From: a virus | Lineage: Duplodnaviria > Heunggongvirae > Uroviricota > Caudoviricetes | IMG/VR virus record: IMGVR_UViG_3300028453_000025 | Length of the DNA: 6,905 bases | Direction: 5' to 3' (one strand) | Notes under the pieces: generated by a model | Seen by the model: only the letters and a program-made list of their open reading frames with translations | Told to the model about the DNA's origin: nothing | The model's database searches: none | Shown: positions 1 through 5,828 of the stretch, piece by piece | Position numbering within the stretch: position 1 is the first letter of the stretch | Layout of the letters: every line of letters begins with the position of its first letter | Program-made: the position numbers and the translations under genes

Positions 1-2833
1 CACCGGACATACTGTTTGCCGCCATCTTAATGCCGTTGACAATGGCCGCATTCATAAGAACTTTTGATATTTCCTGCAGGATTGATGCAGCCCAGCTGCG
101 CCATTCCACTTTATTTCCGTTCAGCATCTCCGTGATGTTATTCACCATCCCTGAGATACCGTCTGTCGCAAGCTGTGCTGCCTGTGAAGCGTAATCTGAT
201 GCGCTGTCCACCCAGTTACTTAGCCCTTCCTGCAGCCCTTTCTGCCAGTCAGCACGCTGCGCATCCGATTCGGCATAAAAAGCCTCCTGGTCTTTAAGGC
301 GTTCACTCAGATACTGCGCATTCTGCGCCAGCGCCTGTCTGTAAAAATCCTCACTGATATCCCCTGTCTGATACTGAGACTGCAGGTCCGCATCCTTCTG
401 GCGGTAGCCGTCACGAATCTGCTGCAGCTCCCGCATCCGTTCACGGACCCGCTCACCCTGCCCGTACCCCAGCAGCTCAGCGTCATTTGATGCCCTTGCG
501 TCTGCATTATCATTTTTCAGGGTCTCCTCCCGGGCCCGTAACTGCTCCCGGATTTTCTTCTGGTCAATCAGGGCAGCATTGCGCAGCAGCTCCTGCTTCT
601 GTATCTCCGTCAGGGTTTTCAGCTCGCCCTGCGAGGTCTGGTATTTCAGTTTTGCCAGTTCTGTATTCTTCCCGGCCAGTGCCAGTTGTTCCTTCTGCTG
701 CTTCAGCAGACGGGAAAAACTGTCTTCCGCTTTTTCCGCCCCTGATTTTCCGGCCCGGGATTTGGGTTTATTCGCCTCATTATTGCGCCAGGCTTCCATC
801 GAATTACGGATGTAACGCTGCCTCGCCTCCTGATACGTATCCCCCACCAGACCAAGGTCATCCGCCGCATACCCCAGCCGGGCACGCTCTTTTTCTTCCC
901 CTTTCAGCCGGGACAGGGCCAGTTGACGCTCTGTGTTATTCAGGGCGCTCTGCTGTTTATCATCCAGAGTGGCCTGTGGCAGTCGCAGCGGTACACTCGC
1001 CAGTCCCTGACGCTGTTGCAGCAGTTCATTACCCAGCCCCAGCAGGCGGTTGAATTCCGTATGCTGACCGTTCATGACCAGCAGTGACTGATACGCTTTA
1101 TTCTGCTCTGCTGCCTGCTGACGAATTAACACAACACGGCGCTCTTCCAGTCCGGCAAGCACATCCTGAATGGACTGCGCTTTTTCCTGCATCTGTGCCA
1201 GACGGGACTGCTCAACAGCAAACTGCTCTGTTGCCTGAGCAAGCTCTTCCGTTACAGTTTTCACCGATGTCAGATGGTTTATCATGAAGCCGTTACCGGT
1301 CGTCCAGCCCGGATTAGCCAGCACATACTGATACCCGGCGATTTTTTCCTGCAGGGATTTCACCCGGCTGGCCTGCTCATCAATCAGCCGGTTCTGCTCT
1401 GTCAGCGCCTCCCGTGTTCGCCCTTCATTATCTGAGGCTTCAGGCAGAGACATTGATGGCGTTTTATGCGCGATTTCATCAATCGTCAGTGCATACTGGC
1501 GCGCAGACTCCCTGGCCTGCTCCTGATTCTGGTACAGCGTGTACCATGCGGCAGCTCCCAGCATCACCAGTCCGGGTACGCCTCCAACCAGTCCCAGCGC
1601 ACCGCTCATCAGACGTGAGCCCACCGCCGTTGTACTGTTCAGCGCATTCTGGGCGGCGGTTCTGGCAGCAATATTTCTGTTCAGGCGTTCCTGTGTGACC
1701 GCCAGACGGGCCTCTGCCGCAATCTGCATCTCAGTCCCGCGGGCTGCCGCCACAGCCTGCTGAGCCCGGTACACGGCTGCCCTTGCCCGCGCCGTGGCAA
1801 TCTGCGTTCCCCTTAACTGGGCCTCAGCCAGTGCCACTTCATTACGTGCAGCGGTCACAAGTCCTGCCGTGGCAGACATCGCTCCGGAAGCCAGATTACC
1901 AAAGTACCGGGCCACCCCGACAGCAACCAGCACACCCGCAGCTGTTGCCACGGTATCAATATTTCCGGCCACACCGTTCAGTGCGCCGGAGAGCGTTTTC
2001 GTCGCTCCGCTGGCCTCATTCGCGCCGCCCACCCAGGCCATAAAGGCGTTTTCCACCTTCGTGATCCCGTCAGACACCGTTTCCGGCATGGCTGCATATT
2101 CATCACGCAATATCCCCAGCTGGCTGATTAACGCGGGAACGACTTTATCCGCCGTCAGTTGACCATCGTCCGCCATCGCCTTCAGATCCTTACGGGCCAC
2201 GCCCATGCCTGCAGCCAGTGCGCGAATGATCCGGTCCCCACTTTCATTGACCGAATTAAATTCCTCGCCGCGCAACACCCCCTGTGCCAGCGCCTGGCTG
2301 AACTGGGTGATCACCGAACCCGCCTCTGCCGCACTGGCACCGGAAATTTTCAGCCCTGTCGAAATGGCCTCCGTCACCTTCAGCACATCATCAGCACTGT
2401 AACCATATTCACGCATCGAGGCAGCCGAACGGGCAAACAGGGTCGCATTATCCGAAAATGCGGTGCCTGTCCGCTGGCTGATGTCCATCAGCACTTTCTG
2501 TGATAACGCAAATTCATCCGATGACTGCGACGCCTGTTTCAGACGGGCATTCACGGAGCTCCATTCATCTGCCAGCGAAATCAGGTGTCCGGTGGCAAAG
2601 GCACCGGCAAACGCACTGGTCATTCCGACAGCCGAAGCGCGGATTTCCGTCAACTGGCTGTTCAGCTCAGCCAGAGCCCGGCACTGCTCCCTGGCTGCCG
2701 CAGCAGCCTGACGTCCGCCATTCTGCAGGGTCCGGTAATATTCACTGCCCATACGGGACGCCCGCTGGATCTCCGACTGGAATGACTGTGAATTTGCCGA
2801 AATTTTGATAATCAGTTCACGTAACGTCGCCAT
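1..2833 (-). CDS. Phage tail tape measure protein, 3'-partial (continues beyond window start); about 944 codons in window
   Basis: Minus-strand ATG at 2833..2831, preceded by AGGAGA-type Shine-Dalgarno (complement of 2838..2847) and an in-frame TGA just upstream. My manual translation stays open to position 2, consistent with the ORF track reporting no stop-bounded ORF in this frame. N-terminus (MATLRELIIKISANSQ...FSQALAQGVLRGEEFNSVNESGDRIIRALAAGMGVARKDLKAMADDGQLTADKV) matches the conserved tape-measure N-terminal domain; long Ala/Gln/Glu/Arg-rich coiled-coil middle; window end (..WVDSASDYASQAAQLATDGISGMVNNITEML..) resembles the lambda-H-type C-terminal region. Sits directly downstream of G/G-T. 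Confidence 0.85.
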   Translation of the reverse strand, partial: MATLRELIIKISANSQSFQSEIQRASRMGSEYYRTLQNGGRQAAAAAREQCRALAELNSQLTEIRASAVGMTSAFAGAFATGHLISLADEWSSVNARLKQASQSSDEFALSQKVLMDISQRTGTAFSDNATLFARSAASMREYGYSADDVLKVTEAISTGLKISGASAAEAGSVITQFSQALAQGVLRGEEFNSVNESGDRIIRALAAGMGVARKDLKAMADDGQLTADKVVPALISQLGILRDEYAAMPETVSDGITKVENAFMAWVGGANEASGATKTLSGALNGVAGNIDTVATAAGVLVAVGVARYFGNLASGAMSATAGLVTAARNEVALAEAQLRGTQIATARARAAVYRAQQAVAAARGTEMQIAAEARLAVTQERLNRNIAARTAAQNALNSTTAVGSRLMSGALGLVGGVPGLVMLGAAAWYTLYQNQEQARESARQYALTIDEIAHKTPSMSLPEASDNEGRTREALTEQNRLIDEQASRVKSLQEKIAGYQYVLANPGWTTGNGFMINHLTSVKTVTEELAQATEQFAVEQSRLAQMQEKAQSIQDVLAGLEERRVVLIRQQAAEQNKAYQSLLVMNGQHTEFNRLLGLGNELLQQRQGLASVPLRLPQATLDDKQQSALNNTERQLALSRLKGEEKERARLGYAADDLGLVGDTYQEARQRYIRNSMEAWRNNEANKPKSRAGKSGAEKAEDSFSRLLKQQKEQLALAGKNTELAKLKYQTSQGELKTLTEIQKQELLRNAALIDQKKIREQLRAREETLKNDNADARASNDAELLGYGQGERVRERMRELQQIRDGYRQKDADLQSQYQTGDISEDFYRQALAQNAQYLSERLKDQEAFYAESDAQRADWQKGLQEGLSNWVDSASDYASQAAQLATDGISGMVNNITEMLNGNKVEWRSWAASILQEISKVLMNAAIVNGIKMAANSMSG

Positions 2834-2850
2834 TCACCTTTCTCCTGGCG

Positions 2851-2872
2851 TAAAAAAACCGCCTCAGCGGTT
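2851..2872 (-). terminator. Terminator-like hairpin plus T-tract between G-T stop and tape measure start (possible attenuator)
   Basis: Minus strand reads AACCGC-TGAG-GCGGTT followed by TTTTT: a 6-bp stem (4 GC + 2 AT), 4-nt loop, then a U-run, immediately upstream of the tape measure ribosome binding site. Stem is short, so termination is likely weak or partial. Confidence 0.3.
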
Positions 2873-2880
2873 CTCATCAT

Positions 2881-3560
2881 TCATGACTGTGCTGCAAGGC
2901 TCAGCGCGTCTTCCAGCGCCGCAAACGGATCCACCTCCGGCTTATCCTCATCCTCGCCCCAGCAGAGCATGGCGTCCTTCAGTGCAACATTCATCCCCTG
3001 TGCCCCGAAAACCGCTTTCACGATCTGTGCATTACGGATATCCCCGCGCTCATCACCCAGCGGGGATATCCTGTCGAACTCCATCCACATCATCGCCTCG
3101 CTCGCACTCAGGCTGTGCCGCAGTTCGGATAAGGTGCGCCCCAGACGGAGCGCAAGTCGCATCAGAAAGCGAATTTCCGGGCGGGCTACTTTTTTCTGAC
3201 CGACTCTGCATCAGCGATCAGTTCCAGTGCCTGACGCAGCAAGCGGGCATGTACCGGACCATAGACGGCCAGCACCTGCTCACGGTCGTCCGGAGTGAAC
3301 ACCCGTTGCAGATCCGTATCACACAGGACATCGCAGAACAGCGTCACATCCGCTTCCAGGTTACGGCGGGTTTTCGCCACCACCGACAGAGTATCGTCAT
3401 CCTCTCCATCACCATTGAGCACGTCCTGCCACAGATACCAGGCCTCTGCCGAAGGCTCCCGCAGCACCACGCTGACATTACCCCATTCCGGCACCTTCAC
3501 CGTTTTATGACGAAACCCTGACAGTCTGGCCAGCGCCAGCGTTTTCAGATCCTTTTTCAT
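2881..3560 (-). CDS. G-T tail assembly chaperone fusion made by programmed -1 ribosomal frameshift (about 226 aa)
   Basis: Slippery heptamer A AAA AAG (minus strand, 3195..3189) sits at the last two G codons before the TAG. The -1 frame reads ..KK-VARPEIRFL-MRLALRLGRTLSELRHS.. and continues open into the 93-aa track ORF 2881..3162, stop TGA at 2881..2883. Matches the conserved G/G-T arrangement of long-tailed dsDNA phages. Confidence 0.75.
3186..3560 (-). CDS. Tail assembly chaperone (lambda gpG analogue), 124 aa
   Basis: Start MKKDLKTLALARL at 3560 with GGGGA Shine-Dalgarno (complement of 3561..3574), 14 nt after the major tail protein stop; ends VRKK-TAG at 3186..3188. Acidic and the right size for a G-type chaperone, in the conserved position between major tail and tape measure genes. 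The track's upstream ATG at 3608 would overlap the major tail gene and lacks a ribosome binding site. Confidence 0.8.
   Translation of the reverse strand: MKKDLKTLALARLSGFRHKTVKVPEWGNVSVVLREPSAEAWYLWQDVLNGDGEDDDTLSVVAKTRRNLEADVTLFCDVLCDTDLQRVFTPDDREQVLAVYGPVHARLLRQALELIADAESVRKK
3189..3195 (-). other. -1 programmed frameshift slippery site (A AAA AAG)
   Basis: Read directly: minus strand GTC AGA AAA AAG TAG; heptamer A-AAA-AAG is the classic XXXYYYZ slip motif, and the -1 frame downstream is open for about 100 codons. Confidence 0.7.
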
Positions 3561-3574
3561 GATGCCCCATCCCC

Positions 3575-4291
3575 TTATCCGGCGGCTGCGCTCACTGTCA
3601 CGGTGCATTCAACAGACGTCACACTCTGTGCTTTCTCTGCCGAATCGGTCACCACGCAGGTATATTTCCCCGCATCAGCGGACTGCGCACCGGGCTTACT
3701 GAAGGTGTCTGTCGTCTGCCCGTCAACCGGCTGACCATCCTTCTTCCAGGCGTATTTATACGGCGGCATTCCCCCGTTGGCACTGACTGACATTGTCAGC
3801 AGCGCACCGGTATTCACGGTAAGTGTCTTATCCAGATTTTTCACAAACGCCAGCGGTACCACAAAGGACACCGGTTTGCCTTTCAGACGCAGTGAGAACG
3901 TTGCAGCCACCACGCCGTTGGTACCGGATGACCAGGTGTGCTGACGCACTTCCGCCAGGAATTTAAAGCCCTTACCGGACGGAAACTGCACCTTAAACGC
4001 ATACAACGCGTCATTGTCATAAGCATCACGCAGGGCATTCTGGGCCTGATTCAGATAAAAATTACCCGACATGGAAATCTCGGACGACGCCCCCAGACCG
4101 TTGATGTTCTCCTGCTCTGTGGAGCAGAGCGTGGTCACATCAATATCCTGTTTCTGACCGGCGGTGAACTGGACTTCCTTGATGGTGCAGTCCAGGCGCA
4201 GATATTCCGCCTTATCCATAGTTTCAGCAGTCGCCGGGGCAGATGAAATCATCACCTGCGTCAGCTGTGAGCGTTCATACAAAGCAGACAT
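3575..4291 (-). CDS. Major tail (tail tube) protein with C-terminal Ig-like domain, 238 aa
   Basis: ATG at 4291 with AGGAGG Shine-Dalgarno (complement of 4293..4300), stop TAA at 3575..3577. Sits just upstream of G/G-T. C-terminal roughly 70 aa (..PPYKYAWKKDGQPVDGQ..AGKYTCVVTDSAEKAQS..) has the Ig-fold signature W..(20-30)..Y-x-C-V. Confidence 0.85.
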   Translation of the reverse strand: MSALYERSQLTQVMISSAPATAETMDKAEYLRLDCTIKEVQFTAGQKQDIDVTTLCSTEQENINGLGASSEISMSGNFYLNQAQNALRDAYDNDALYAFKVQFPSGKGFKFLAEVRQHTWSSGTNGVVAATFSLRLKGKPVSFVVPLAFVKNLDKTLTVNTGALLTMSVSANGGMPPYKYAWKKDGQPVDGQTTDTFSKPGAQSADAGKYTCVVTDSAEKAQSVTSVECTVTVSAAAG

Positions 4292-4307: not shown

Positions 4308-4328
4308 AAAAAACCCGCACGCGGCGGG
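4308..4328 (-). terminator. Terminator-like hairpin plus T6 just upstream of the major tail protein ribosome binding site
   Basis: Minus strand CCCGC-CGCGT-GCGGG (5-bp GC stem, 5-nt loop; plus 4314..4328) followed directly by TTTTTT (plus 4308..4313), then ATTATCAGGAGGCAGA-ATG. Lies in the 66-nt gap between the tail terminator-like gene and the major tail gene. Confidence 0.3.
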
Positions 4329-4357
4329 GTATGGGTTTTGTGGGAAAAAAGAAAAAG

Positions 4358-4702
4358 TCACACCGTGACCTGAAACTCCAGGGTTGCACGGTAACAGCGG
4401 TTTTCCGGAATATAGTCCTGCATTTCACTGACGGCTCCCGGGGCCAGCAGCATTATGGCTTCACGGGCGTCCTGACGTATCTGACGCGCCTGCGTCACAG
4501 TCCCGGCATAAACGTCTATCTGCACCGACACTGAGGACTCCGCCTGCCCGCCCATCACGTCCGCAGACACCGATGAAATCAGGCTGAAAACCACCCACGG
4601 AAGCGCCACCGACGGCCTGCCATCCAGCAGGGGGACCACATACGGGTACACCTGCCCGCCGGCAAGATGCGCCAGATGAGGATACAAATCCGCCTCCGTC
4701 AT
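4358..4702 (-). CDS. Putative tail terminator / tail completion protein (gpU functional analogue), 114 aa
   Basis: ATG at 4702 overlaps the upstream gene stop (ATGA). Call is mainly positional: last small gene before the major tail protein in the canonical siphovirus order, with appropriate size. No specific motif recognised. Confidence 0.5.
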   Translation of the reverse strand: MTEADLYPHLAHLAGGQVYPYVVPLLDGRPSVALPWVVFSLISSVSADVMGGQAESSVSVQIDVYAGTVTQARQIRQDAREAIMLLAPGAVSEMQDYIPENRCYRATLEFQVTV

Positions 4703-5501: not shown

Positions 5502-5828
5502 TCATAACACCGTCGGACAACGCAAATCGTAAATCAGCACGGAAACAGAAAACGGCAGCTCCCCCTGAAGCAGTTCTTCCCGCTCCGCAAGATCCGGATT
5601 CCGGTACAGCATCCCGGTCAGCCGCATGGCAGCCCCCTTCATCCGGGTTAATGCCTCGCCCGGGATCAGTTCACCGTCCTCACGAATCACTTTATCCCGG
5701 CTGCCCTGAATGTAGGCCAGCAGCACGGCGGTAGCCTGACGAACCTTGTCCATCAGCATGTCATCATCCGCGTCATGGTCGACACGCAGATGTGCCTTGA
5801 TCTCTTCCAGTGTCAGTAATGCCGTCAT
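5502..5828 (-). CDS. gp6-like head-tail connector (adaptor) protein, 108 aa
   Basis: N-terminus MTALLTLEEIKAHLRVDHDADDDMLMDKVRQATAVLLAYIQ matches the hallmark of the gp6-like connector family (L-x-L-E-E-x-K-x-H-L-R-x-D, acidic run, then helix). ATG at 5828 overlaps the upstream repeat-protein stop (ATGA). Confidence 0.8.
   Translation of the reverse strand: MTALLTLEEIKAHLRVDHDADDDMLMDKVRQATAVLLAYIQGSRDKVIREDGELIPGEALTRMKGAAMRLTGMLYRNPDLAEREELLQGELPFSVSVLIYDLRCPTVL

What the first reader, a model, noticed from the sequence alone, without database searches (positions are those of the whole stretch)
2851..2872. Terminator-like hairpin between G-T and the tape measure gene: possible attenuator setting tape-measure dose
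The 47-nt T-to-tape-measure intergenic region holds a stem-loop followed by a U-tract on the coding strand, just before the tape measure ribosome binding site. Tape measure is needed in far fewer copies than the major tail protein, so a partial terminator here could help set stoichiometry alongside the frameshift. The stem is short, so it may instead be an RNase processing or stability element. Lambda has no obvious terminator at this junction.
Basis: seen in the sequence. Interest (0 to 1): 0.4.

Follow-up and report, generated by a model that had tools for sequence, protein, structure and literature searches.

The report
Conserved terminator before tape-measure gene
The hairpin is a real, evolutionarily conserved transcription terminator just upstream of the phage tape-measure gene, at the spot where related phages carry extra "moron" genes; this kind of element was already annotated in phage HK97, and a dose-setting role is possible but unproven.

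Summary
On the coding (minus) strand, the 47-nt gap between the T stop codon (2883..2881) and the tape-measure ATG (2833..2831) contains AACCGC-UGAG-GCGGUU followed by U7, then the AGGAGA ribosome binding site.

It is not a chance hairpin. In 70 prophages from different bacterial species, 42 have a canonical terminator 15-24 nt before the tape-measure ATG. That is about 40 times the coding background. At least 49 different stem sequences occur, with compensatory changes.

This junction is the classical HK97 gene 15 "moron" slot. 27 of 70 loci carry unrelated cargo genes there, and 25 of those 27 have the terminator right after the cargo. 17 of 43 cargo-free loci have a solo terminator, as this window does.

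The HK97 GenBank record already annotates a putative terminator at this position and at several other late-operon junctions. Close relatives of the window (phage 2851) have Q antitermination about 19 kb upstream. The site should therefore be largely read through in lytic growth and should stop only unmodified RNA polymerase.

The dose-attenuator idea is not excluded but fits the distribution poorly. An equivalent terminator sits upstream of the most abundant tail protein gene in 60 of 64 loci, and many relatives lack the tape-measure one. Verdict: new member of a known kind, modest interest.

The parts
2857..2872 (-). Terminator hairpin core: 5' arm AACCGC (2872..2867), loop UGAG (2866..2863), 3' arm GCGGUU (2862..2857). 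It can extend to 2875..2854 using G.U and A-U pairs.
   Evidence: Sequence. Folds: -10.8 kcal/mol, z -4.3. Structure kept in 49 distinct homologous versions, with covariation.
2852..2858 (-). U tract: seven consecutive U. The first two can pair with the AA at the base of the stem.
   Evidence: Sequence. The T run is the only invariant block in the alignment of relatives.
2834..2880 (-). The 47-nt T-to-tape-measure intergenic region, which is an empty 'moron slot'. It holds the terminator and then the tape-measure ribosome binding site AGGAGA (2846..2841).
   Evidence: Relatives carry 277-1688 nt of cargo at this point. HK97 gene 15 sits here.
2881..3162 (-). T segment of the G-T tail assembly chaperone, reached by a -1 frameshift. 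Its stop codon UGA (2883..2881) lies 8 nt before the hairpin core.
   Evidence: PHROGs phrog_337, E 9e-40. T frame open from 3210.
3186..3608 (-). G tail assembly chaperone ORF, with slippery heptamer AAAAAAG at 3195..3189. The true start is probably a later ATG, near residue 16.
   Evidence: phrog_344, E 2e-46..
1..2833 (-). Tape measure protein gene. Only the 5' part lies in the window; ATG at 2833..2831.
   Evidence: phrog_339, score 1211 bits.
4308..4328 (-). Sister element: terminator-like hairpin CCCGC-CGCGU-GCGGG plus U6 in the 66-nt gap upstream of the major tail gene. It brackets the V-G-T block together with the finding.
   Evidence: A homologous position carries a terminator in 60 of 64 related loci. 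It is annotated as a putative terminator in HK97.

Best explanation
The element is a genuine Rho-independent (intrinsic) transcription terminator. It belongs to the conserved backbone of HK97-type siphophage tail modules and sits directly in front of the tape-measure ribosome binding site. It marks the 3' edge of a hot spot where related phages carry prophage-expressed cargo genes (morons such as HK97 gene 15). In this prophage the slot is empty, so the terminator stands alone.

Shown here: the structure, its position, and its conservation with compensatory changes. Also shown: the presence of cargo at this junction in relatives, and the presence of Q in close relatives.

Inferred mechanism: it stops RNA polymerase that has not been modified by the phage Q antiterminator. 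That means transcription in the lysogen from moron promoters or stray promoters, which keeps the tape-measure and distal tail genes silent. During lytic growth, Q-modified polymerase starting at the late promoter about 19 kb upstream reads through it, as it must read through at least six other intergenic terminators in the same operon. Any effect on tape-measure dose in the lytic cycle would then be small and secondary, through leaky termination or protection of the 3' end of V-G-T message.
For: Structure: a 6-9 bp GC-rich stem, a tetraloop and U7 on the sense strand, folding at -10.8 kcal/mol with z -4.3. No alternative fold appears in 165 nt of context.

Enrichment: in 72 prophage loci from different species, 44 have a sense-strand terminator motif in the 100 nt before the tape-measure ATG. 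The tape-measure coding region gives about 1 per 100-nt bin.

Position: the stem end lies 15-24 nt before the ATG, with 49 distinct sequences.

Compensatory change:
- Among near-identical E. coli prophages (T protein 97-100% identical) there are two alleles, AACCGC/GCGGTT and AACCTGC/GCAGGTT, which differ by an inserted T:A pair. There is also one G.U wobble variant.
- In a 19-sequence alignment, 89.5% of cells are paired, against 40-58% when the partners are slid.
- In the same alignment, 4 of 6 pairs changed on both sides, and 0 of 500 shuffles reach the covariation score.

Moron slot:
- 27 of 70 loci carry 277-1688 nt of unrelated cargo between T and the terminator: YebO/gp15-like proteins, lipoproteins, a zinc-ribbon membrane protein, and TPR and VasI-like proteins.
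- 25 of those 27 have the terminator at the 3' edge, and 17 of 43 cargo-free loci have a solo terminator.
- The terminator type follows the tape-measure leader, not the cargo.

Prior annotation: HK97 and HK75 records annotate a (putative) terminator at this spot.

Q context:
- Phage 2851, 98.4% identical to the window here, has Q upstream of a co-directional late operon. That operon contains sense-strand intergenic terminator motifs after the tRNAs, stx2B, Rz, terL, the U-like gene, T and L.
- HK97 has Q.
- Late transcription in Stx phages depends on Q antitermination (PMC7547250).

Morons are defined as prophage-expressed units with their own promoter and terminator (PMC3594210).
Against: No 3'-end or termination data exist for this site, so the function is inferred.

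The window has no cargo and no sigma-70-like promoter on the sense strand of V-G-T. It is therefore unclear what the terminator would need to insulate here.

In EPEC E2348/69, prophage PP6 has the identical architecture, and its tail genes are almost silent in the lysogen (base means 2-27, no step at the junction).

The element is dispensable: 26 of 43 cargo-free loci, HK022 and lambda lack it.

The core stem is on the weak side (-7.2 kcal/mol for 6 bp), so termination may be partial even for unmodified polymerase.

The near-universal terminator upstream of the major tail gene is rarely associated with cargo. These hairpins may therefore have a moron-independent role, such as RNA stability, that this explanation treats only as secondary.
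Confidence: 0.55

Rival explanations
1. Partial terminator (attenuator) that lowers tape-measure and distal tail transcription relative to V, G and G-T during lytic growth. It would help set stoichiometry alongside the frameshift.
For: The terminator is real and conserved immediately upstream of the tape-measure gene. That gene has its own strong ribosome binding site rather than the overlapping T/H arrangement of lambda. Tape measure is needed in a few copies per tail and V in hundreds (established knowledge). Q antitermination is not necessarily 100% efficient at every site.
Against: Close relatives use Q antitermination for the whole late operon. The same phages carry a like terminator directly upstream of the major tail gene in 60 of 64 loci and upstream of the major head gene in phage 2851, where lowering downstream dose makes no sense. 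The element is absent from 26 of 43 cargo-free relatives, HK022 and lambda. There is no alternative antiterminator fold that would make it regulated.
Confidence: 0.18
2. RNA processing or stability element. After read-through, the hairpin acts as a barrier to 3'-to-5' exonucleases for the V-G-T message. Alternatively it acts, like its sister hairpin upstream of V, as a protective 5' structure after endonucleolytic cleavage. Either way the V-G-T segment would have a longer life than the flanking message.
For: The only two sizeable intergenic gaps in the cluster (66 nt before V, 47 nt after T) both hold such hairpins, and they bracket V-G-T. The bracketing is common in relatives: U|V in 60 of 64 loci, and 37 loci with both. 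Hairpin barriers that set segmental mRNA stability are an established mechanism in polycistronic operons (own knowledge).
Against: A stability hairpin does not need a U tract, yet the T run is the most conserved part of the element. Every version found looks like a canonical terminator, although my scan required a T tail and so could not detect hairpins without one. There are no data on processing sites. The RNase E and Hfq cross-linking literature on EHEC and EPEC prophages that I could read reports nothing at this junction.
Confidence: 0.14
3. Functionless relic: the terminator of a moron whose promoter and ORF have been deleted.
For: The terminator is nearly identical to those following cargo in relatives. 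Examples are Salmonella phage SP-016 and the Leclercia and Enterobacter prophages with AAACCGC-TTCG-GCGGTTT. Sequence similarity with those relatives stops at the 5' edge of the stem.
Against: Structure is maintained by compensatory change even among very close relatives. Solo terminators have a tight, compact geometry (intergenic gap 32-37 nt in 17 loci, 47 nt here) with no cargo remnants. The terminator class follows the tape-measure leader rather than the cargo. The region occurs in 1245 of 5426 complete E. coli genomes, with up to 7 copies each.
Confidence: 0.1
4. 3' end and Hfq-binding module of a small RNA derived from the end of the T gene (isrK-like, or one of the known EHEC/EPEC prophage sRNAs).
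For: A sub-threshold Rfam hit to isrK over 2919..2852 (23.7 bits, E 0.066 for the window). A terminator hairpin plus poly-U is the usual Hfq module (PMC4104026). Multicopy prophage sRNAs do exist within late regions (PasB, HnrS).
Against: The isrK score is far below the gathering threshold of 50, and the match is mostly the terminator, with broken pairs elsewhere. PasB lies antisense between tail genes I and J, and its probe is absent from the window. HnrS/EcOnc10-12 lies upstream of the packaging genes. No Hfq peak is listed in the Sp9 tail region. No RIL-seq coordinates fall at the identical EPEC junction, and read counts there are near zero. There is no sense-strand promoter within T.
Confidence: 0.03

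Closest known systems
Putative terminator downstream of moron gene 15 of phage HK97 (GenBank AF069529, 8398-8422; also annotated in HK75), described with the moron concept by Juhala et al. 2000
   Same: Same position, immediately upstream of the homologous tape-measure gene (about 80% amino-acid identity at the N terminus). Same strand, and the same canonical build: GC stem, 4-nt loop, U8, then the ribosome binding site. Both lie in a late operon governed by Q.
   Different: In HK97 it follows a 62-aa cargo gene with its own promoter. Here T's stop codon is 8 nt upstream and there is no cargo or promoter. The stem sequence differs (ACCCGCU/AGCGGGU against AACCGC/GCGGUU). Neither has been tested experimentally, as far as I could find.
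Lambdoid tR' / Q antitermination system (lambda, Stx phages)
   Same: An intrinsic terminator within the late transcription unit that Q-modified polymerase must pass. It is effective against unmodified polymerase in the lysogen (PMC7547250).
   Different: tR' lies directly after the late promoter and is the regulatory switch. This site is about 19 kb downstream, between structural genes, and is one of at least seven such sites. Lambda itself has none at the T/H junction.
Internal partial terminators after highly expressed phage structural genes, e.g. T7 T-phi after gene 10 (own knowledge, not tested here)
   Same: A terminator inside a structural gene cluster that could lower transcription of downstream, lower-copy genes.
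   Different: T-phi acts on T7 RNA polymerase, is experimentally established, and follows the major capsid gene. Here host polymerase with Q is expected to ignore the site, and sister terminators sit upstream of the most abundant proteins.
Rfam RF01394 isrK (Gifsy-1 prophage Hfq-binding RNA)
   Same: A prophage RNA ending in a similar terminator (AgcCGC...GCGgcUUUUUU). The hit aligns to the full length of the model.
   Different: The score is 23.7 bits against a gathering threshold of 50. The upstream helices are poorly matched. isrK lies in the Q/late-promoter region, not in the tail genes (PMC7547250 discussion).

Membership tests
Rho-independent (intrinsic) terminator | GC-rich stem-loop of about 5-14 bp with a short loop | tested here: met
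   AACCGC-UGAG-GCGGUU with 4 G-C pairs, extendable to 9 pairs. Folding energy -7.2 to -10.8 kcal/mol; z -4.3.
Rho-independent (intrinsic) terminator | Run of U immediately 3' of the stem | tested here: met
   Seven consecutive U at 2858..2852. The T run is the only invariant block in relatives.
Rho-independent (intrinsic) terminator | Sense orientation, downstream of a stop codon, in an intergenic region | tested here: met
   It is on the coding strand, 8 nt after the T stop codon, in a 47-nt gap. The opposite strand lacks a T tail.
Rho-independent (intrinsic) terminator | Structure, not sequence, conserved at the homologous position | tested here: met
   42 of 70 loci, 49 distinct versions, compensatory changes.
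Rho-independent (intrinsic) terminator | RNA 3' ends generated at the U tract in vitro or in vivo | not testable with these tools
   Term-seq for EHEC Sakai exists (GSE143631, cited in PMC7547250) but cannot be read here.
Moron cassette (promoter - cargo ORF - terminator) as defined for HK97 gene 15 | Extra ORF inserted between conserved neighbours | tested here: not met
   The gap is 47 nt and holds no ORF. Relatives have 277-1688 nt of cargo at this point.
Moron cassette (promoter - cargo ORF - terminator) as defined for HK97 gene 15 | Own sigma-70 promoter active in the lysogen | tested here: not met
   No promoter-like site on the sense strand in or near the gap.
Moron cassette (promoter - cargo ORF - terminator) as defined for HK97 gene 15 | Terminator at the 3' edge | tested here: met
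   This is the element itself. It corresponds in position to the HK97 annotated terminator.
Regulated transcription attenuator (alternative antiterminator fold or leader peptide) | Competing structure that can sequester one arm of the terminator | tested here: not met
   The hairpin is present in both the minimum-energy and centroid folds of 71 and 165 nt. No conserved upstream partner appears in the alignment.
Rfam RF01394 isrK | Covariance-model score at or above the gathering threshold (50 bits) | tested here: not met
   23.7 bits.
Known EHEC/EPEC prophage sRNAs (PasB, HnrS/EcOnc10-12) | Sequence and genomic position match | tested here: not met
   The PasB probe is absent from the window, and PasB lies between I and J. 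HnrS lies upstream of the packaging genes.

The most novel reading that the evidence does not exclude
The terminator is a working, ribosome-sensitive stoichiometry device. T is translated only by the few ribosomes that frameshift, and the T stop codon lies 0-8 nt from the 5' arm of the hairpin (0-3 nt in the 17 solo-terminator relatives, 8 nt here). A ribosome finishing G-T would therefore mask the stem and let polymerase pass. Transcripts without a T-frame ribosome would terminate. Transcription of the tape-measure and distal tail genes would then be coupled to G-T chaperone synthesis.

A milder novel reading is better supported: the terminator came first, and morons are captured only directly upstream of it. 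That would reverse the textbook view that each moron brings its own terminator.
Probability: 0.08. Interest if true: 0.65.

Novelty: new member of a known kind. Interest (0 to 1): 0.3.

Why it matters
The practical value is for annotation. This short gap in more than a thousand E. coli genomes, including EHEC and EPEC prophages, can be labelled as an intrinsic terminator and an empty moron slot, not an sRNA or a novel regulator.

The comparative result has some wider interest. Terminators in front of the tape-measure gene and in front of the major tail gene are backbone features of HK97-type tail modules across Enterobacterales. The tape-measure one is the fixed 3' boundary of a cargo hot spot, filled in 39% of species-level loci by unrelated small membrane proteins or lipoproteins.

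This points to where to look for new superinfection-exclusion or defence cargo. It also raises a testable question: what are terminators doing inside an operon that is transcribed by terminator-resistant polymerase?

Tried and rejected
1. Rfam scan: the only result was a sub-threshold isrK hit (23.7 of 50 bits), driven by the terminator. Rejected as homology.

2. Known prophage sRNAs:
- PasB (EPEC) maps antisense between I and J, outside the window, and its probe is absent.
- PasA, PasC and PasD lie in the Q/lysis region.
- HnrS/EcOnc10-12 lies upstream of terminase.
- None of the Hfq peaks listed for prophage Sp9 (Tree 2014, Table S2) lies at or beyond its terminase gene, so none is in its head or tail genes. 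I did not fetch Sp9's tail region or confirm that it carries this terminator.

3. EPEC RIL-seq and RNA-seq supplements for the identical PP6 junction show no chimeras and near-zero counts. They are uninformative about termination, and some of these files were truncated when stored.

4. The search for related loci with the T protein in viral contigs returned only 97-100% identical copies. In genome contigs it confirmed nothing. A second genome scan, using an alignment of tape-measure N termini, gave the 78 diverse loci used here.

5. RNAalifold on the MAFFT alignment recovered only 3 of the pairs, because stems of different length are out of register. I relied on per-sequence folds and on pair counting with an explicit structure.

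6. The Cumby 2012 paper on gp15 and the Juhala 2000 paper are not in the library. What I say about them rests on the 2012 commentary (PMC3594210) and the GenBank records.

7. A small second helix enclosing the tape-measure ribosome binding site (CGCCA...UGGCG) is not conserved in relatives, so I dropped it.

Full report
**What is in the window**

All genes lie on the minus strand. PHROGs identify, in order:
- the end of a portal-like gene
- head-tail adaptor, head closure and tail completion proteins
- a U-like tail terminator protein (4702..4358)
- the major tail protein with an Ig-like C-terminal domain (4291..3575)
- the G chaperone (3608..3186)
- the T segment (3162..2881)
- the tape measure protein (ATG at 2833..2831, running off the window)

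G ends with the slippery heptamer AAAAAAG (3195..3189) directly before its stop codon, and the T frame is open from 3210. The G-T frameshift pair is therefore real.

The region is 98-99% identical to long-tailed Stx phages and O157 lambdoid prophages such as phage 2851, YYZ-2008 and BP-4795. A 311-nt piece around the junction occurs in 1245 of 5426 complete E. coli genomes, with up to seven copies per genome.

**The observation**

The T stop codon (UGA, 2883..2881) and the tape-measure ATG are 47 nt apart. On the coding strand the gap reads AUGAUGAG-AACCGC-UGAG-GCGGUU-UUUUU-ACGCC-AGGAGA-AAGGUGA-AUG.

The six-pair core (2872..2857) has four G-C pairs. It can extend by three A-U or G.U pairs into the U run. 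There are seven U in a row (2858..2852), followed by a strong Shine-Dalgarno sequence.

- The element folds at -10.8 kcal/mol, z = -4.3, with 0 of 200 shuffles as good.
- It is unchanged in a 165-nt context, with no competing helix.
- The reverse strand has no T tail.
- The built-in terminator scan missed it. I infer this is because its stem rule swallows the U run. A scan with a free stem length finds it.
- That scan finds three such motifs on the sense strand of the window, against 0.4 +/- 0.6 in dinucleotide shuffles.

**Conservation**

This is the decisive evidence. Diverged phages whose tape-measure 5' ends are only 72-77% identical in DNA have a hairpin plus T tract at the same place, but with different stems:

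| Phage | Hairpin | Cargo upstream |
|---|---|---|
| Evi | AACCGC-TTCG-GCGGTT | none |
| Serratia OS31 | AACCCGC-TTAG-GCGGGTT | none |
| mEp390, Fraca | GCCCGC-GGCT-GCGGGC | none |
| Bordetella PHB09 | GGCCCGC-ATG-GCGGGCC | none |
| HK97, HK75 | ACCCGCT-ATCA-AGCGGGT | gene 15 |
| Salmonella SP-016 | AAAACCGC-TTCG-GCGGTTTT | extra ORF |
| Klebsiella and Aeromonas phages | other stems | extra ORFs |

A scan of one genome per bacterial species with an alignment of tape-measure N termini gave 78 prophage loci.
- 44 of 72 full-length loci have a sense-strand terminator motif (at most -7 kcal/mol) within the 100 nt before the ATG. The tape-measure coding sequence gives about one per 100-nt bin.
- The stem ends 15-24 nt before the ATG, and 49 different versions are seen.
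- Among 80 near-identical E. coli copies (T protein 97-100% identical) there are two alleles. One is the window's AACCGC/GCGGTT. The other, in 24 loci, is AACCTGC/GCAGGTT, which is a compensatory insertion of a T:A pair. Two loci have a variant that keeps pairing through G.U.
- On a 19-sequence alignment, 89.5% of cells are paired against 40-58% for slid partners. Four of six pairs changed on both sides, and no shuffle out of 500 reaches the observed covariation score.

The hairpin is therefore under selection as a structure. The U run is its most invariant part, which points to termination rather than to a mere hairpin.

**The junction is the HK97 moron slot**

In HK97 and HK75, gene 15 lies between T (gp14) and the tape measure (gp16). 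Gene 15 is the original "moron", a prophage-expressed superinfection exclusion protein. The GenBank records annotate a putative terminator between gene 15 and the tape-measure gene (PMC3594210).

Of the 70 species-level loci in which T could be placed:
- 27 carry 277-1688 nt of extra DNA there, and 25 of these have the terminator at the 3' edge.
- 43 have no insert. Of these, 17 have a solo terminator in a compact 32-37 nt gap, and 26 have none, in gaps of 8-33 nt.

The cargo is unrelated from locus to locus. It includes YebO/gp15-like small membrane proteins, lipoproteins, a membrane zinc-ribbon protein, a TPR protein and a VasI-like protein.

The terminator type goes with the tape-measure leader and not with the cargo. 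The leaders fall into two families...ACGYCNGGAG... and ...TTTTATGGGTGAAATATG. Similarity between cargo-bearing and cargo-free relatives begins at the 5' base of the stem. I infer that the terminator belongs to the phage backbone and forms the fixed 3' boundary of the variable slot. The window is an empty slot. HK022 (19-nt gap) and lambda (T and H overlap) have no terminator here.

**This terminator is one of a series**

In the window, the only other sizeable gap is 66 nt, between the U-like gene and the major tail gene. It also holds a terminator-like hairpin, CCCGC-CGCGU-GCGGG plus U6 (4328..4308). The homologous junction has one in 60 of 64 related loci.

Phage 2851 has antiterminator Q upstream of a co-directional late operon. 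Sense-strand intergenic terminator motifs lie after the tRNAs, after stx2B, after Rz, between terL and the major head gene, before V, before the tape-measure gene, and after L.

The HK97 record annotates putative terminators at portal|protease, after gp5, before and after gp12, after gene 15, at K|I, and after moron 22. It also annotates a Q protein.

In Stx phages, late transcription depends on Q antitermination at tR' (PMC7547250). It follows from established knowledge of lambdoid Q that polymerase making virion messages is terminator-resistant and must pass all these sites.

**Most likely mechanism, and rivals**

Shown: a conserved canonical terminator, its position, the cargo slot, and Q in close relatives.

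Inferred: it halts unmodified polymerase and is read through in lytic growth. In the lysogen, that polymerase would come from moron promoters or adventitious starts.

The dose-attenuator proposal is weakened on three counts:
- the Q context
- the sister terminators placed upstream of the most abundant proteins (V, major head)
- the element's absence from many relatives

It is not excluded, because read-through need not be complete.

A role as an RNA-decay barrier bracketing V-G-T is attractive given the two flanking hairpins. It does not explain the conserved U run.

A pure relic is unlikely, given the compensatory change among close relatives and the compact, remnant-free geometry.

An sRNA reading has no support:
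- the isrK hit is far below threshold
- PasB and HnrS map elsewhere
- the identical EPEC junction shows no Hfq chimeras and near-zero reads in lysogens

That last observation also weakens my own explanation, since there is little transcription to insulate against in a cargo-free prophage.

**Comparison and novelty**

The element works like, and passes every sequence-level test for, an intrinsic terminator. It occupies the same position as the HK97/HK75 putative terminator before the tape-measure gene, so the kind has been known since the HK97 genome paper. It is not a moron (no ORF, no promoter), not isrK, and not a regulated attenuator (no alternative fold).

What I did not find stated in the material available to me:
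- the terminator occurs without cargo in a sizeable fraction of phages
- its type tracks the tape-measure leader
- the terminator upstream of the major tail gene is nearly universal in this family

**Verdict**

Observation confirmed; interpretation partly supported. This is a new member of a known kind. Interest is 0.3. The interest comes mainly from the open question of why terminators are conserved inside a Q-antiterminated operon, and from the value of the slot as a place to look for prophage cargo.

Noticed in passing
window 4308-4328 (minus strand), in the 66-nt gap between the U-like gene (4702..4358) and the major tail gene (4291..3575): A second canonical terminator-like hairpin, CCCGC-CGCGU-GCGGG plus U6, lies directly before the major tail gene's ribosome binding site. 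The homologous junction has one in 60 of 64 related prophage loci, and HK97 annotates a putative terminator there. Its role upstream of the most abundant tail protein is unexplained.
   Followed up: partly
window 4355-4371 (minus strand): A third hairpin, AGGUCAC-GGU-GUGACUU followed by UUUCUUUUUU, overlaps the stop codon of the U-like gene. It lies in tandem with the hairpin at 4328..4314.
   Followed up: no
L179 (phage 2851) 15187-15204, between terL and the major head gene: Here the hairpin is GAACCGC-TGCG-GCGGTTT plus a T run. It differs from the T|tape-measure hairpin (GAACCGC-TGAG-GCGGTTT) by one loop base, so nearly the same terminator occurs twice in one late operon.
   Followed up: no
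window 6205-6859, with a run of 10 N at 6656-6665: There are four tandem copies of a unit of about 162 nt (54 codons) in the 3' part of the portal-like gene. A 10-N assembly gap lies inside the repeats, which breaks the reading frame into two listed ORFs (6885..6613 and 6616..5825).
   Followed up: partly
L100-L177, between the T stop codon and locus position 2500: The T|tape-measure slot carries diverse cargo in 27 of 70 species-level prophages. The cargo includes YebO/gp15-like proteins, several unannotated lipoproteins, a membrane zinc-ribbon protein found in Leclercia and Enterobacter, a 296-aa TPR protein, and a VasI-like protein. Most have no known function and are candidates for superinfection exclusion or defence.
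   Followed up: partly
L001 (E. coli E2348/69, NC_011601 1466261-1466343): The published Hfq-dependent sRNA PasB lies antisense in the gap between tail genes I and J of a prophage (PP6). The head-to-tape-measure region of PP6 has the same architecture as the window. PasB lies beyond the end of this window.
   Followed up: yes
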